This document shows, in pieces, positions 1 to 9,982 of a stretch of 64,000 nucleotides of DNA. Numbering within the stretch: the first letter of the stretch is position 1; every line of letters starts with the position of its first letter. Made by a program: the position numbers and the translations under genes. The DNA is from a virus. A model generated the notes under the pieces. The model was not told where the DNA came from. It did no database searches and saw only the letters and a list, made by a program, of their open reading frames with translations. Location of the stretch: positions 1 through 64,000 of IMG/VR virus record IMGVR_UViG_3300027836_000007, one strand, 5' to 3'.

Positions 1-110
1 CATAGCGCCTCTTCGTGACTATCATAGCGTTTGCGTCCACTTGATGCGGCATTAGCATAGTGTGGCATAGCTAGTATCGCTTTAAATGATGTGTGTAATT
101 GTGTAGTCAT
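1..110 (-). CDS. Hypothetical protein, runs off the window edge (MTTQLHTSFKAILAMPHYANAASSGRKRYDSHEEAL...)
   Basis: ATG at 110 lies 7 nt after a minus-strand TATAAT; frame open to position 1. Confidence 0.55.
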   Translation of the reverse strand, partial: MTTQLHTSFKAILAMPHYANAASSGRKRYDSHEEAL

Positions 111-117
111 AGCAGTA

Positions 118-145
118 ATTATAGCAGGTTTTGAGCTAATGTCAA
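118..145 (-). promoter_or_regulatory. sigma70-type promoter
   Basis: TTGACA(145-140)-N16-TATAAT(123-118). Confidence 0.7.
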
Positions 146-624
146 CCTCACTATATACCAATAGCCGCGAAGCGGTAGCGCGAAAAAAATTTTGAGCATC
201 GGAAGTCTATAGCTCAGTCCCAGTTCATTCCATTCACTGGTTAGCCATTCGTTTGCCAAGACACACGTCTCGCCAAACTCTGGGTATTGATATTAACTTA
301 TAGTGTTAAGGACCAAATGACACCAATGACTATGCCCAAGCCAAATGCCAAGATACAAAGCCCGATGACAACAGCTGAATACACAACCGTATCCTCTACT
401 ATGAATTCAACCTGTTCACGAGTAATCACAGTATCAAGTCCTTTTTATATACATGTACCATTAATGGATCTATGAGTAAAGCCAATGACAGTCTATCCTC
501 ACGTATATAGAACTCAGCATATGGCTCAACACTTACAGCTGATACATACTCAGCACATAACCATAGTTGCTCTTGTACTGAATACTCAGCTGATGTACGA
601 TAACAATATAAACGCATATGACAT

Positions 625-1273: not shown

Positions 1274-1465
1274 ATGACCTTTACTACTATAGCTAATGTA
1301 TATGTACGTGACAGACAGTATAATGTTCATGTCAGCATTAATGATCTTACTCGTGCTATACATATATTCAAGTATGATGAACGCCATACTATATGTGAAT
1401 ATGAACTGTTCAATAATCATTTTGATGCCGCGGATTATTTAGAATTATTGCTGAAAGGTAAGTAG
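1274..1465 (+). CDS. Small hypothetical protein
   Basis: 63-aa ORF; TAAATA at 1264-1269, 4 nt before ATG. Confidence 0.6.
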   Translation: MTFTTIANVYVRDRQYNVHVSINDLTRAIHIFKYDERHTICEYELFNNHFDAADYLELLLKGK

Positions 1466-1675
1466 AGGGTTCGAACCAAAGTAAATGCTAGAATTCGGGG
1501 CCGAGACCTTCAGCCCAAATCCGTTTTGTCAACCGGATTTCTATAACCCTTTTGTCAACCAGGTCGTTGTTTTCGCGCCACAGTTAGTTGGCGCTTACTA
1601 ACATAGAACCCGACGCCCACCCTCGCCGTCCATCCCCTTAAGCAGTTCGAACACTCTTTGTCTTTCTATGCTGCA

Positions 1676-1704
1676 ATTATAACGCATTTTGGGCATTCTG
1701 TCAA
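1676..1704 (-). promoter_or_regulatory. sigma70-type promoter, divergent from the 1748 promoter
   Basis: TTGACA(1704-1699)-N17-TATAAT(1681-1676). Confidence 0.8.
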
Positions 1705-1782: not shown

Positions 1783-2109
1783 ATGGAAAAGAAAAAGCGA
1801 ACTGCACGTTCAGACTCAAACTATATCATATATGCCGCTACCCATAATGGGCAGAGCTATATTGGACTGACCCGCAAAGGTACAGTCAGCATAGCCAAAG
1901 CCGTTAAGGAACGCTGGCGCAAGCATATATCACGTGCAAAGCACGAGGATAGGGCTTGGGTCTTGTATCAGTATATCAAAGGCGGAGCATGGACTGACTG
2001 GGAGCATACAGTCATAGACGTGATTAGAGGGCGAGCTGAAGCTTATGCATACGAGCGTGAGCTGGTCAAGCAGATGCAGCCCGAACTGAACGATCAATAC
2101 ATCGGTTGA
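1783..2109 (+). CDS. GIY-YIG nuclease family protein
   Basis: YIIY...SYIGLT, ERWRKH and ERELV...PELN motifs; start reassigned to ATG 1783, 6 nt after TATAAT. Confidence 0.75.
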   Translation: MEKKKRTARSDSNYIIYAATHNGQSYIGLTRKGTVSIAKAVKERWRKHISRAKHEDRAWVLYQYIKGGAWTDWEHTVIDVIRGRAEAYAYERELVKQMQPELNDQYIG

Positions 2110-3452: not shown

Positions 3453-3743
3453 ATGTTAACCATACAAGACGTCAACAAGGCAATCATGCTACAGACTTGG
3501 ACCAACACAGAGCTCAGCTCTATGATTGATGCTGTCAAGTGGAACAGAGAGCAACTGAGCAAGCGCATCAAACGTTCGATCGGTGTAGGCGACAATGTGG
3601 AGTTCACTAGCTCTAAGACAGGGCGCTTGACCCGCGGCTTTGTCAAGAAGGTAGCCATTAAGTATGTCACAGTGGACACGGGCTCGGGCTTGTGGAGAGT
3701 TCCAGCTAACATGCTGACAGTGGTTGACAAAGAGCTGGCTTGA
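3453..3743 (+). CDS. Early hypothetical protein (SH3-like beta-rich C-terminal half)
   Basis: Own promoter, GGAG RBS; VGDNVEF...GFVKKV...VTV...WRVP pattern. Confidence 0.8.
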   Translation: MLTIQDVNKAIMLQTWTNTELSSMIDAVKWNREQLSKRIKRSIGVGDNVEFTSSKTGRLTRGFVKKVAIKYVTVDTGSGLWRVPANMLTVVDKELA

Positions 3744-3757
3744 AGCTATAATTGAGT

Positions 3758-4092
3758 TAAGTTAGAAGATAAAGGCGATCCTCAAATGCAAGGACCCACG
3801 CGAAAGCAAAAAGGGTCGTAGCCAAAGGATACGAAGAGAGTTTGGAGACTCTGCCTCCCAAATTGAGGTTACCTAGACCACTAGGCGACTGGGATGATGA
3901 CAGTACCGACGGGCGCTGGTCAAGTCCAGGAGCATGAAGCAGGGGCAACCCGGAGTTGCGGTGGACAATCTAGGAGTAATGACCGTGCAGGCCTACGTGA
4001 GACGTTTGCGTAGGTAGAGACAGATGCACAATGGTTCCTCTCTACTATAAGGCATTCAGGTAGACCCTGATGTAAGTCCAATCCTATAGAGA
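3758..4092 (+). ncRNA. Candidate ~330-nt structured non-coding RNA
   Basis: Follows promoter 3724-3752; no RBS or ORF; many nested helices with GAAA and GCAA tetraloops. Confidence 0.65.
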
Positions 4093-4097
4093 CTTTT

Positions 4098-4126
4098 ATT
4101 ATAGCACGTTTTTGAGACCCTGTCAA
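4098..4126 (-). promoter_or_regulatory. Antisense sigma70 promoter pointing into the structured element
   Basis: TTGACA(4126-4121)-N17-TATAAT(4103-4098). Confidence 0.8.
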
Positions 4127-4218
4127 TACCCATGAGGCCGGCAGGGTCTTTTATTTTGAGTTGACGTTTTGGACGATGTGCGCTATAATACAAGCATACA
4201 CACTAAAAAGGATCCAAA

Positions 4219-4443
4219 ATGTTTACAAACTGTATTGCACGTGCTAAGTTAAACTACAACAAAAAATTAAAATGCTACAAACTGCTAGTTGCATTTGTTA
4301 ACGAAGGCGACAGCATTACACAACGCAACAGCGCATTTGTTAGCGGAGATTTGTGTGCAGATACTATTACAGCAGATTTGCAACGTGTATTGCTTACAGC
4401 AGAAAAAACACTGCGCACAAGTAACATTGTATTTGTAGAATAA
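4219..4443 (+). CDS. Early hypothetical protein
   Basis: Promoter 4161, AAGGA RBS. Confidence 0.75.
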   Translation: MFTNCIARAKLNYNKKLKCYKLLVAFVNEGDSITQRNSAFVSGDLCADTITADLQRVLLTAEKTLRTSNIVFVE

Positions 4444-9824: not shown

Positions 9825-9903
9825 GGGCCTCTAGCTCATGCTTGGTTAGAGCAGTGGACTCATAATCCATTGGTGCGGAGTTCGACTCTCCGGGGGCCCA
9901 CCA
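9825..9903 (+). tRNA. tRNA with CAT anticodon, most likely tRNA-Ile2 (lysidine-modified) rather than Met
   Basis: Cloverleaf: acceptor GGGCCTC/GGGGCCC, anticodon loop CT-CAT-AA, GTTCGA T-loop, encoded CCA; resembles bacterial ileX. Confidence 0.9.
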
Positions 9904-9907
9904 TATT

Positions 9908-9982
9908 CTGGCGTTCGTTCAACGGATAGGACAAGGCTCTTCTAAAGCCTTAATGGGGGTTCGATTCCCTCACGCCGGACCA
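9908..9982 (+). tRNA. tRNA-Arg(TCT)
   Basis: Acceptor CTGGCGT/ACGCCGG, anticodon arm AGGCT-CT TCT AA-AGCCT, GGTTCGATT, CCA end. Confidence 0.9.

What the first reader, a model, noticed from the sequence alone, without database searches (positions are those of the whole stretch)
3758..4092. Promoter-driven ~330-nt highly structured non-coding RNA candidate
Seen: this is the only + strand early promoter (3724-3752) not followed by a plausible ORF. The downstream sequence forms successive nested domains: CCTCAA/TTGAGG (3780/3863) enclosing GACCC/GGGTC with GC-GAAA-GC and TTTGG/CCAAA; GACCA/TGGTC (3876/3917); GTCCA/TGGAC (3924/3962) with GGG-GCAA-CCC; GTGCA/TGCAC (3985/4025) enclosing CCTACG/CGTAGG; and TCAGG/CCTGA inside a CTATA...TATAG stem. 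GNRA loops on the + strand indicate the functional strand. I do not recognise it as tRNA, tmRNA, RNase P or a clear intron. Inference: a large phage ncRNA, ribozyme or protein decoy made immediately on infection.
Basis: partly seen in the sequence, partly recalled or inferred. Interest (0 to 1): 0.8.

Follow-up and report, generated by a model that had tools for sequence, protein, structure and literature searches.

The report
Composite early non-coding RNA, lake phage
This promoter-to-terminator stretch of an uncultured giant lake-water phage makes a non-coding RNA built from three separately conserved folded modules, the largest being a ~190-base RNA carried once per genome by this phage group, uncatalogued and of unknown function.

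Summary
The feature is real, non-coding and on the + strand, but it is not one 330-nt domain. A perfect sigma-70 promoter (3724-3752) and a hairpin plus U-run (4114-4157) frame a ~400-nt transcript made of three modules that recur separately in related uncultured jumbo-phage contigs.

- M1 (3772-3856) is an 86-nt three-way junction that always lies just behind a promoter.
- M2 (3860-4049) is a ~190-nt multi-helix RNA.
- M3a (4049-4086) is a small trailer hairpin.

M2 has strong covariation: 94% of cells paired, 549 double changes against 165 in shuffles, slid controls about 40%. It is single-copy in five of five near-complete ~350-kb genomes. Relatives place it right behind an early promoter or at the head of tRNA arrays. 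It has no Rfam match, no codon signal, and no copy in cultured phages or in the GTDB pattern-matched loci. Short high-depth metatranscriptome contigs confined to M2 hint at an abundant RNA.

A perfect antisense promoter (4126..4098) is a copy of a common promoter/stem-loop cassette.

Function is unknown. My best guess is a stable trans-acting RNA that binds a protein. This scan has already found the M2 family on other genomes.

The parts
3724..3752 (+). Sigma-70-type promoter TTGACA-N17-TATAAT; predicted start near 3759. The initial transcribed AAGTTAGAAGATA resembles the ACAGTTAGAAAAG start seen behind relatives' promoters.
   Evidence: 12/12 match; same promoter-plus-leader layout in relatives.
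3772..3856 (+). Module M1, an 86-nt three-way junction. Helices: P1 3774-3776/3853-3855; P2 3778-3782/3826-3830; P3 3788-3789/3821-3822 and 3793-3797/3813-3817, capped by GC-GAAA-GC 3800-3807; P4 3837-3841/3848-3852. Possible pseudoknot CAA 3823-3825 with TTG 3842-3844.
   Evidence: 45 distinct copies, 42 of them 11-23 nt (mostly 17-23) after a promoter's -10 box; 91% column identity, 99.7% of cells paired, 48 double-change cells against 12 in shuffles, slid controls 20-51%; single copy in 3 of 5 complete genomes.
3860..4049 (+). Module M2, a ~190-nt conserved multi-helix RNA. Helices: P1 3865-3868/4037-4040; P2 3872-3876/3970-3974 and 3878-3882/3960-3964; P3 3889-3892/3926-3929 with inner hairpin 3903-3907/3912-3916; P4 3942-3944/3949-3951 (GCAA loop); P5 3982-3984/4033-4035 and 3985-3989/4025-4029; P6 3992-3997/4009-4014. 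Invariant junctions: CAUGAA 3933-3938 and AGUAAUGA 3975-3982.
   Evidence: model R1: 97 + 28 matches; covariation; one copy in each of 5 near-complete genomes; the single-sequence fold recovers P2-P6.
4049..4086 (+). Module M3a, a trailer element AAGGCATT-hairpin-TGTAAGTCCAATC with hairpin 4057-4061/4066-4070. In relatives it follows a tRNA CCA end, a CCA-ended RNA, or M2.
   Evidence: 8 distinct contexts; the stem is kept with different loops (UAGAC against GAAA).
4114..4157 (+). Hairpin GAGACCCTG (4114-4122) / CAGGGTCT (4142-4149) with a 19-nt loop, then TTTTATTTT. Probable intrinsic terminator of the + transcript. It is also the stem-loop part of a promoter/stem-loop cassette.
   Evidence: Read from the sequence; stem appears in the fold; same hairpin type next to -35 boxes in about 89 places in relatives.
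4098..4126 (-). Perfect antisense promoter TTGACA-N17-(TG)TATAAT, start near 4091, aimed into M3a/M2/M1. No RBS or ORF follows it.
   Evidence: 12/12, extended -10; same make-up as the - promoters at 145..118 and 1704..1676; the cassette is normally followed by RBS plus ORF, and the arrangement is kept in L011; no ORF.
3761..3770 (+). Remnant of the 5' strand of the outer closing stem P0. AGTTAGAAGA can pair weakly with TCTCTACT at 4039-4046, enclosing M1 plus M2.
   Evidence: -3.7 kcal/mol here, against a median of -14.3 kcal/mol for the flanks of 84 relatives.

Best explanation
Window 3759 to about 4157 is a host-RNA-polymerase-transcribed early gene for a non-coding RNA that joins three conserved modules.

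M2 is the core. It is this phage's copy of a single-copy, clade-wide, ~190-nt RNA of uncultured freshwater jumbo phages. I think it is a stable, trans-acting RNA whose invariant junction core binds a protein, host or phage, most likely one tied to tRNA or translation given its usual place at the head of tRNA operons. That core includes CAUGAA opposite AGUAAUGA, which could form a loop-E/sarcin-ricin-like AGUA/GAA platform.

In most relatives M2's two ends pair into a long outer stem that would protect the ends or mark a processing site. In this window the 5' strand of that stem has been replaced by M1. M2 is therefore made as part of a longer M1-M2-M3a transcript that ends at its own terminator.

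Shown: transcription signals, absence of coding, the module boundaries, the folds of M1 and M2, copy number, and genomic contexts. Inferred: stability, trans action, protein binding, and early timing.
For: - Signals: promoter and terminator.
- No ORF or codon pattern.
- M2 covariation: 94% of cells paired, 29 of 39 pairs with double changes, 549 double-change cells against 165 +/- 14 in shuffles, slid controls 39-46%.
- Strand: G-U pairs fix the + strand.
- Copy number: one M2 per genome in 5 of 5 near-complete genomes.
- Context, from 77 copies with at least 200-nt flanks: 31 have a same-strand tRNA within 150 nt (30 of them downstream, mostly 8-21 nt), 32 have a promoter ending at most 30 nt upstream, and 12 have M1 upstream. 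What lies downstream varies, so M2 is not a gene-specific leader.
- Outer stem: flanks of relatives pair at a median of -14.3 kcal/mol against -9.3 for mismatched flanks.
- Expression hint: in a lake metatranscriptome, contigs of 87-133 nt confined to M2 have depth 102-398, while flanking contigs reach at most 33. A second study shows M1 at depth 74.7 and M2 at 25-32.
- Junction stretches ATGAA and GTAATGA are invariant in the unbiased first set.
Against: - No experiment and no cultured phage carries it.
- The metatranscriptome data are assembled contigs. They give no strand or ends, depth is one figure per contig, and M2 is more conserved than its flanks, so more strains add up there.
- The proposed CAU/AUG helix beside the AGUA/GAA motif never covaries, and it is broken without compensation in at least three rows shown (CACGAA, CAAGAA).
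- The collection of M2 copies by a 19-nt pattern inflates the conservation of the 5' strand of P2.
- No partner protein is identified.
- The antisense promoter could mean the locus is regulated or silenced by convergent transcription.
Confidence: 0.4

Rival explanations
1. M2 is an RNA that acts without protein. Either it is a new ribozyme, for example helping to cut itself or neighbouring tRNAs out of the operon transcript, or it self-assembles into an RNA-only multimer as ROOL, GOLLD and manA RNAs do.
For: M2 has many invariant unpaired nucleotides in junctions, which is typical of catalytic or tertiary cores. Like GOLLD and ROOL it sits in phages next to tRNAs (PMC12286853). RNAs under 200 nt can form cages (bioRxiv 10.64898/2026.07.01.735769, abstract only).
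Against: No match to any Rfam ribozyme, GOLLD, ROOL or manA model, even at E up to 10. The P4 and P3 terminal loops vary freely (GNRA, UUCG, long inserts), so they are not fixed contact points. My mutual-information scan found no clear helix-length tertiary pairing.
Confidence: 0.2
2. M2, and perhaps M1, is a decoy against a host anti-phage system that attacks tRNAs or other stable RNAs, made early and in excess.
For: M2 is co-located with phage tRNA arrays, which are themselves thought to offset tRNA-targeting defences (general knowledge). It has an early consensus promoter, is single-copy and clade-wide, and shows hints of high abundance.
Against: ARAGORN and the Rfam tRNA models do not see M2 as tRNA-like. 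It has no anticodon-loop-like heptaloop. No defence target is known.
Confidence: 0.15
3. The region is mainly cis-acting. M1 is a promoter-proximal leader that changes the transcribing polymerase or the stability of whatever follows it, as the put RNAs of phage HK022 or 5' stabiliser hairpins do. On this reading M2 and M3a are simply its cargo here.
For: M1 starts 11-23 nt (mostly 17-23) after the -10 box in 42 of 45 distinct copies. It precedes unrelated cargo: M2-like RNAs about 17, RBS plus diverse ORFs 14, next promoter 6, other 8. It is 91% conserved with a supported fold. One metatranscriptome contig joins M1 to an ORF.
Against: M1 is single-copy per genome and absent from 2 of 5 complete genomes by blastn, which is odd for a general leader. 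Six copies stand alone before another promoter. No terminator or anti-SD expression platform follows it. This reading explains M1 but not the conserved M2.
Confidence: 0.15
4. The functional unit is a sense/antisense pair. The perfect - strand promoter makes an RNA complementary to M3a-M2-M1 that controls the + RNA through transcriptional interference or duplex cleavage.
For: The promoter at 4126..4098 is a 12/12 match with an extended -10 box. The same arrangement is kept in L011. No ORF lies behind it.
Against: The promoter plus hairpin is one of about 89 copies of a generic cassette that normally drives RBS plus ORF. It may therefore be a by-product of cassette shuffling. Only one other locus shares the arrangement. 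Covariation shows selection on the + strand fold only.
Confidence: 0.1

Closest known systems
Phage T4 rnaC and rnaD (species 1 and 2 RNAs) and the phage T5 stable RNAs
   Same: Small, stable, non-tRNA RNAs of unknown function encoded by large virulent phages in or beside their tRNA gene clusters and transcribed by host polymerase (from general knowledge, and named in earlier notes of this scan). 31 of 77 M2 copies lie within 150 nt of a tRNA.
   Different: blastn against 50,697 phage records gave only short chance-level matches (best E = 3), and none to a T4 or T5 record. M2 is longer, about 190 nt, with its own fold. In this window it is not in a tRNA cluster; it is fused to M1 and has its own promoter and terminator.
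GOLLD and ROOL RNAs (Rfam; PMC12286853)
   Same: Structured RNAs of unknown function, found in phages and lake metagenomes, often beside tRNAs.
   Different: They are 3-4 times larger. The Rfam models do not match. Multimer formation was not tested for M2.
RNase III processing stems of polycistronic phage transcripts (T7 R1.1 type)
   Same: In relatives the flanks of M2 form an outer stem (P0) that, stacked on P1, gives about 20 bp with an internal loop. Earlier notes of this scan read such stems as RNase III sites.
   Different: This is a resemblance only and cleavage is untested. In this window the stem is degenerate at -3.7 kcal/mol, so this copy is probably not released that way.
HK022 put RNAs and other promoter-proximal leader RNAs
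   Same: M1 is a folded RNA of about 86 nt fixed just downstream of a promoter and independent of the cargo.
   Different: No sequence relation is known. The effect on polymerase is untested. M1 is single-copy per genome.
Promoter-early stem-loop (PeSL) shuffling cassettes of T4-type phages (recalled from memory; paper not read here)
   Same: Each small early gene has its own consensus promoter abutting a stem-loop. The modules appear in different orders in related genomes.
   Different: Here the shuffled units include non-coding RNA modules as well as ORFs.

Membership tests
Any Rfam 15 family (riboswitches, ribozymes, RNase P, tmRNA, 6S, SRP, Y RNA/YrlA, GOLLD, ROOL, manA and others) | Covariance-model match at or near the gathering score | tested here: not met
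   (gathering score, whole window): only two tRNAs at 9825-9979. (E up to 10, 3600-4300): only chance-level hits far below the gathering scores. (13 relatives' loci): only tRNAs beside M2.
   The window scores 199.2 bits and was among the 11 sequences R1 was built from, so this match is by construction. The independent evidence is 96 other matches in the loci and 28 in 61, and pair conservation of 83-100% for P1, P2 and P3a.
Unnamed ~190-nt RNA of freshwater jumbo phages (M2) | One copy per genome | tested here: met
   One copy in the 106.8-kb contig and one in each of 5 near-complete genomes.
Unnamed ~190-nt RNA of freshwater jumbo phages (M2) | Long outer closing stem (P0) formed by the sequences directly flanking the core | tested here: not met
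   Relatives: median -14.3 kcal/mol, 68 of 84 at or below -10. Window: the 5' strand is replaced by M1, and the remnant pairs at only -3.7 kcal/mol.
Unnamed ~190-nt RNA of freshwater jumbo phages (M2) | Placed directly behind an early promoter or at the head of a tRNA array | tested here: inconclusive
   In the window the promoter is 107 nt upstream with M1 in between. 12 of 77 relatives share the M1-M2 layout. The nearest tRNAs are 5.8 kb away.
Riboswitch or gene-specific cis-regulatory leader | Constant position upstream of one class of gene, with an expression platform (terminator or SD-sequestering helix) | tested here: not met
   M2 is followed by tRNAs, promoters, other RNA modules or ORFs. 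M1 is followed by at least 9 unrelated ORF starts, RNAs or promoters, and no platform was seen.
Protein-coding gene | Conserved open frame with 3-base periodicity of substitutions | tested here: not met
   about 4 stops per + frame; a fully open frame in at most 8 of 71 sequences; variability 0.257/0.267/0.266 by codon position.
Y RNA / YrlA with a Ro (TROVE) partner | A Ro60-type protein encoded by the same genome, and a match to the YrlA model | tested here: not met
   PF05731 is absent from 5 near-complete genomes while the control genomes respond. No Rfam hit. A host Ro cannot be excluded.
T4 rnaC/rnaD and T5 stable RNAs | Sequence homology | tested here: not met
   No significant blastn match in the phage collection: none at E <= 1e-5 and only short chance-level hits at E 3-9.
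T4 rnaC/rnaD and T5 stable RNAs | Stable RNA processed out of a tRNA-operon transcript | not testable with these tools
   Only assembled metatranscriptome contigs were available, so there are no ends and no half-life.
Self-cleaving ribozyme of a new class | Site-specific self-scission | not testable with these tools
   Needs an in vitro assay.

The most novel reading that the evidence does not exclude
M2 is a new class of protein-independent RNA, either a ribozyme or a self-assembling RNA particle. It would be a core gene of a whole clade of giant freshwater phages and would act on the tRNA or translation apparatus. M1 would be a second new RNA class, a promoter-proximal element that reprogrammes the polymerase or marks phage transcripts.
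Probability: 0.15. Interest if true: 0.85.

Novelty: new variant of a known kind. Interest (0 to 1): 0.6.

Why it matters
Giant phages are known to carry tRNAs and translation genes, but their non-coding RNA content is almost uncharted. M2 has well over a hundred copies in public viral contigs. It shows strong covariation, is single-copy in complete genomes, and there are hints of high abundance in lake metatranscriptomes. That is the kind of evidence that has led to new riboswitch, ribozyme or RNA-assembly classes.

This window adds three things:
- The RNA can lose its usual closing stem and be expressed as a fusion.
- A second conserved RNA, M1, travels as a promoter-proximal module in front of both RNAs and ORFs.
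- RNA modules are shuffled like the small early ORFs.

The folds given here are ready for in vitro probing and cryo-EM without a cultured host.

Tried and rejected
- Known RNA family: cmscan on the window and on 13 relatives' loci found nothing but tRNAs.
- Coding, including short ORFs on either strand: rejected.
- A repeated element within the phage: single copy in the 106.8-kb contig.
- Cultured carriers:
  - No significant blastn match in 50,697 phage records: none at E <= 1e-5, only short chance-level hits at E 3-9.
  - Model R1 found only E > 0.08 hits in Phosso, Atu_ph07, PA5oct and SCTP-2.
- Bacterial or archaeal carriers: a 19-nt pattern gave 7 loci in GTDB genomes. None is a credible M2; the best scores 15.5 bits.
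- Ro/Y-RNA idea: no TROVE gene in 5 genomes.
- Tertiary or kissing pairs in M2:
  - Mutual information gave isolated column pairs (3891 with 3921, 3911 with 3926) but no helix. I could neither confirm nor refute the loop-loop contact reported earlier in this scan.
  - The CAU/AUG plus AGUA/GAA loop-E idea has no covariation support.
- Metatranscriptomes:
  - Run X2 covers the whole 1.3 kb at even depth, so it may be DNA or read-through and says nothing about the RNA's ends.
  - One X2 contig skips exactly 3861-4048 with two other letters in between, at depth 2.8. I read this as a strain lacking M2 there, not as splicing.
  - Parts of the stretch without cover in X17, X19 and X20 are not evidence of silence.
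- The IMG/VR motif catalogue of PMC10690425 (motifs of 29-151 nt) may hold pieces of M1 or M2. Its supplementary tables were not opened.

Full report
**Where the window lies.** The window is the first 64 kb of a 106.8-kb IMG/VR viral contig that CheckV rates 29% complete. It encodes a 1118-aa tail sheath that is about 40% identical to those of the jumbo phages Phosso, Atu_ph07 and PA5oct. The first 14 kb is a typical early region. It holds twenty + strand TTGAC-N17-TATAAT promoters, and 19 of them are followed within about 60 nt by an ORF: an AGGAGC-type ribosome site plus ORF, or in one case a leaderless ORF at 1784.

**Transcription unit.** The predicted start is near 3759. A 9-bp hairpin (4114-4122 with 4142-4150, 19-nt loop) followed by TTTTATTTT is a plausible intrinsic terminator, giving a primary transcript of about 400 nt. 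No ORF with a ribosome site exists on either strand. Rfam finds nothing at the gathering score or at E up to 10. Fold energy is only moderately better than for shuffled sequence: z = -2.25 on the + strand and -1.51 on the - strand. Energy alone would not settle the matter.

**The region is modular.** The 96-aa ORF upstream (3453-3743) has 49 relatives in viral contigs. blastn, nhmmer and a MAFFT alignment of their flanks show that the candidate RNA splits into pieces that occur in different places and orders.
- M1 is 3772-3856.
- M2 is 3860-4049.
- M3a is 4049-4086.
- The terminator/promoter cassette is 4090-4160.

In L011 and L017, M1 is followed by a small ORF, then a new promoter, then M2. 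In L034, L036, L044 and L045, M1 sits between the promoter and the ribosome site of the 96-aa gene itself.

**M2 fold and covariation.** An alignment of 11 copies found through the neighbouring protein, and therefore not selected by M2's own sequence, already gave 23 of 39 predicted pairs with compensatory changes. A covariance model built from it (R1) was searched against loci collected with a 19-nt pattern. It found 97 matches in 100 sources and 28 more in 61 others.

On 76 distinct sequences:
- 94.0% of cells form standard pairs, against 74.8% in shuffles and 39-46% when partners are slid.
- 29 of 39 pairs show double changes.
- There are 549 double-change cells against 165 +/- 14 in shuffles.

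Several pairs are G-U in many or all sequences, which fixes the + strand. There is no coding signal.

The supported architecture is:
- a closing P1;
- a long, sequence-conserved P2 with an asymmetric internal loop;
- a variable three-part P3 arm;
- a P4 hairpin whose loop varies freely (GNRA, UUCG or long inserts);
- a P5/P6 arm;
- invariant single-stranded junctions UUA, CAUGAA, GGAGAAGC, AGUAAUGAC and a P6 loop AGACG.

The single-sequence fold of the window's M2 recovers P2-P6.

GGG-GCAA-CCC, GTGCA/TGCAC and CCTACG/CGTAGG are conserved. GACCA/TGGTC and GTCCA/TGGAC are not, and they compete with covarying helices.

**M2 context and distribution.**
- Of 77 distinct copies with at least 200-nt flanks, 31 have a same-strand tRNA within 150 nt. 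Thirty of those tRNAs are downstream, mostly 8-21 nt away.
- 32 have a promoter ending at most 30 nt upstream, and 12 have M1 upstream (the tRNAs were confirmed by Rfam).
- In most copies the flanks pair into an extra outer stem P0. Examples are ACAGTTAGA...TCTAACTGT, CTATATTAA...TTAATATAG and CATATGTA...TACATATG. The median flank duplex is -14.3 kcal/mol against -9.3 for mismatched flanks.
- M2 occurs exactly once in each of five near-complete genomes of 345-383 kb.
- It was not found in cultured relatives, gave only short chance-level blastn matches in 50,697 phage records, and is absent from the seven GTDB loci that matched the 19-nt pattern.
- Those five genomes lack a Ro/TROVE gene.

In this window P0 is degenerate. 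Its 5' strand position is occupied by M1, and only a weak remnant at the very 5' end of the transcript can pair with 4039-4046 (-3.7 kcal/mol). P1 is reduced to 4 bp.

**M1.** A second pattern scan plus nhmmer gave 45 distinct copies.
- 42 of them begin 11-23 nt (mostly 17-23) after a -10 box.
- The element is 91% identical across copies.
- It folds as a three-way junction. On 35 distinct rows 99.7% of cells are paired, 7 pairs have double changes, and there are 48 double-change cells against 12 in shuffles, with slid controls at 20-51%.
- One covarying pair (C-G to U-A in six sequences) supports a short pseudoknot between the junction CAA (3823-3825) and the P4 loop TTG (3842-3844). This is modest evidence.
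- What follows M1 varies: M2 or M2-like RNAs about 17, a ribosome site with at least nine unrelated ORF starts 14, another promoter 6, other sequence 8.
- M1 is single-copy in three of five complete genomes and not detected in two.

M1 is therefore either a cargo-independent promoter-proximal leader or a small RNA gene of its own that lacks a terminator. I cannot decide between these.

**M3a and the cassette.** M3a (AAGGCATT-hairpin-TGTAAGTCCAATC) recurs in eight contexts: directly after a tRNA's CCA, after another CCA-ended RNA, or after M2. Its stem is kept around different loops, so it looks like a trailer or punctuation element.

The last part of the region combines the hairpin with a perfect - strand promoter at 4126..4098. 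nhmmer finds about 89 copies of this promoter-plus-stem-loop cassette in the collected loci, and there it normally drives a ribosome site and an ORF. The window holds two more of the same make-up, at 145..118 and 1704..1676. In this locus the cassette points into the RNA gene and no ORF follows it. The same arrangement is kept in L011. It may give an antisense transcript or may be a by-product of cassette shuffling.

**Expression.** Twenty public runs from 14 studies hold at least part of the stretch, six of them RNA libraries. Only assembled contigs could be laid, which show neither ends nor strand.
- In one lake metatranscriptome (X20) the contigs that fall inside M2 are short (87-133 nt) and deep (102-398), whereas flanking contigs reach at most 33.
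- In X17, M1 lies on a 923-nt contig of depth 74.7 that continues into an ORF, and M2 lies on contigs of depth 25-32.

This is a hint of an abundant RNA, not proof, because M2 is also the most conserved part and collects more strains.

**What it most likely is and does.** The shown facts fit a stable, trans-acting non-coding RNA: a single-copy, clade-wide gene with a conserved fold and invariant junctions, ends normally locked in a stem, placed at the head of tRNA operons or behind strong host-type promoters, with variable downstream neighbours.

I think protein binding by the invariant core is the most likely mode of action (0.4). The opposed AGUA and GAA stretches could form a loop-E-like platform, but this has no covariation support. 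Rivals are:
- a protein-independent ribozyme or self-assembling RNA (0.2);
- a decoy against tRNA-directed host defences (0.15);
- a mainly cis-acting role through M1 (0.15);
- a sense/antisense control unit (0.1), which could coexist with any of the above.

**Comparison with what is known.** By kind it resembles the unexplained stable RNAs of T4 (rnaC, rnaD) and T5, and by habitat and tRNA neighbourhood the GOLLD and ROOL RNAs. It is a member of none of these by sequence or model. The closing stems of relatives resemble RNase III processing sites, but this copy lacks one.

A 2023 catalogue of IMG/VR motifs of 29-151 nt (PMC10690425) may contain fragments of these RNAs; I did not check its tables. 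My two full-text paper searches turned up no paper describing the family.

Earlier notes of this same scan describe the M2 family on other genomes (e1-5375642, e1-5322397; e1-5318818) and describe the stem-closed cassette system. I reached the same fold, copy number and contexts independently. M1 had been seen only by first readers.

**Verdict.** The feature is real. The reading as a single 330-nt nested RNA is wrong in its architecture but right in its nature. It is an uncatalogued RNA family within a known kind of phage element, and its function is open.

Noticed in passing
window 1422-1672, - strand: About 250 nt between the perfect - strand promoter (1704..1676) and the ORF starting at 1420 has no ORF, yet it is conserved at DNA level in 19 related loci (E down to 5e-26). 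It may be another promoter-proximal non-coding RNA or a long leader. It contains GTTCGAAC-type palindromes.
   Followed up: partly
window 1784-2109, + strand: The promoter at 1748-1776 is followed after only about 8 nt by an ATG opening a ~108-aa ORF with a YIIY...YIG motif, which looks GIY-YIG-like. This would be a leaderless mRNA. No profile search was run.
   Followed up: no
window 100-240, 1660-1800, 4082-4222 and about 89 places in related loci: A recurrent cassette: a stem-loop of the type (A)ACCCTAC-NNNN-GTAGGGT(T/C) abutting the -35 box of a consensus promoter. At 1676-1776 and 4098-4189 it forms back-to-back divergent promoters. It recalls the promoter/stem-loop shuffling cassettes of T4-type phages.
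   Followed up: partly
L082, L086, L073, L024, L006, L004 (downstream of M2): Another conserved RNA-like module (GTCCCGGGAATCCACGC...GTAGGTGAAACTCC...GGGACGCCA) whose ends pair and which finishes in GCCA like a tRNA acceptor end. It is followed by M3a. A further module (GGGTGTTGGCC...AACATTAAACGAGG) follows M2 in L075, L057, L147 and L055. Neither matches Rfam in L124.
   Followed up: no
L148:88-515, - strand: Two tandem, diverged copies of M2, each with its own outer stem, lie directly upstream of a tRNA. This is the only multi-copy case seen.
   Followed up: no
L015:1429-1623, L209, L187, L201, L190: Diverged M2 variants behind M1 (GGTTACCAACTCCGGTAGG or GGTTAACTAGACC in place of GGTTACCTACACC). 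This shows that the pattern-based collection understates the family's diversity.
   Followed up: partly
window 3860/4049, run X2: One low-depth (2.8) metatranscriptome contig joins 3860 to 4049 with two other letters in between. It is a form that lacks exactly M2, which fits M2 being a cassette with sharp borders.
   Followed up: partly
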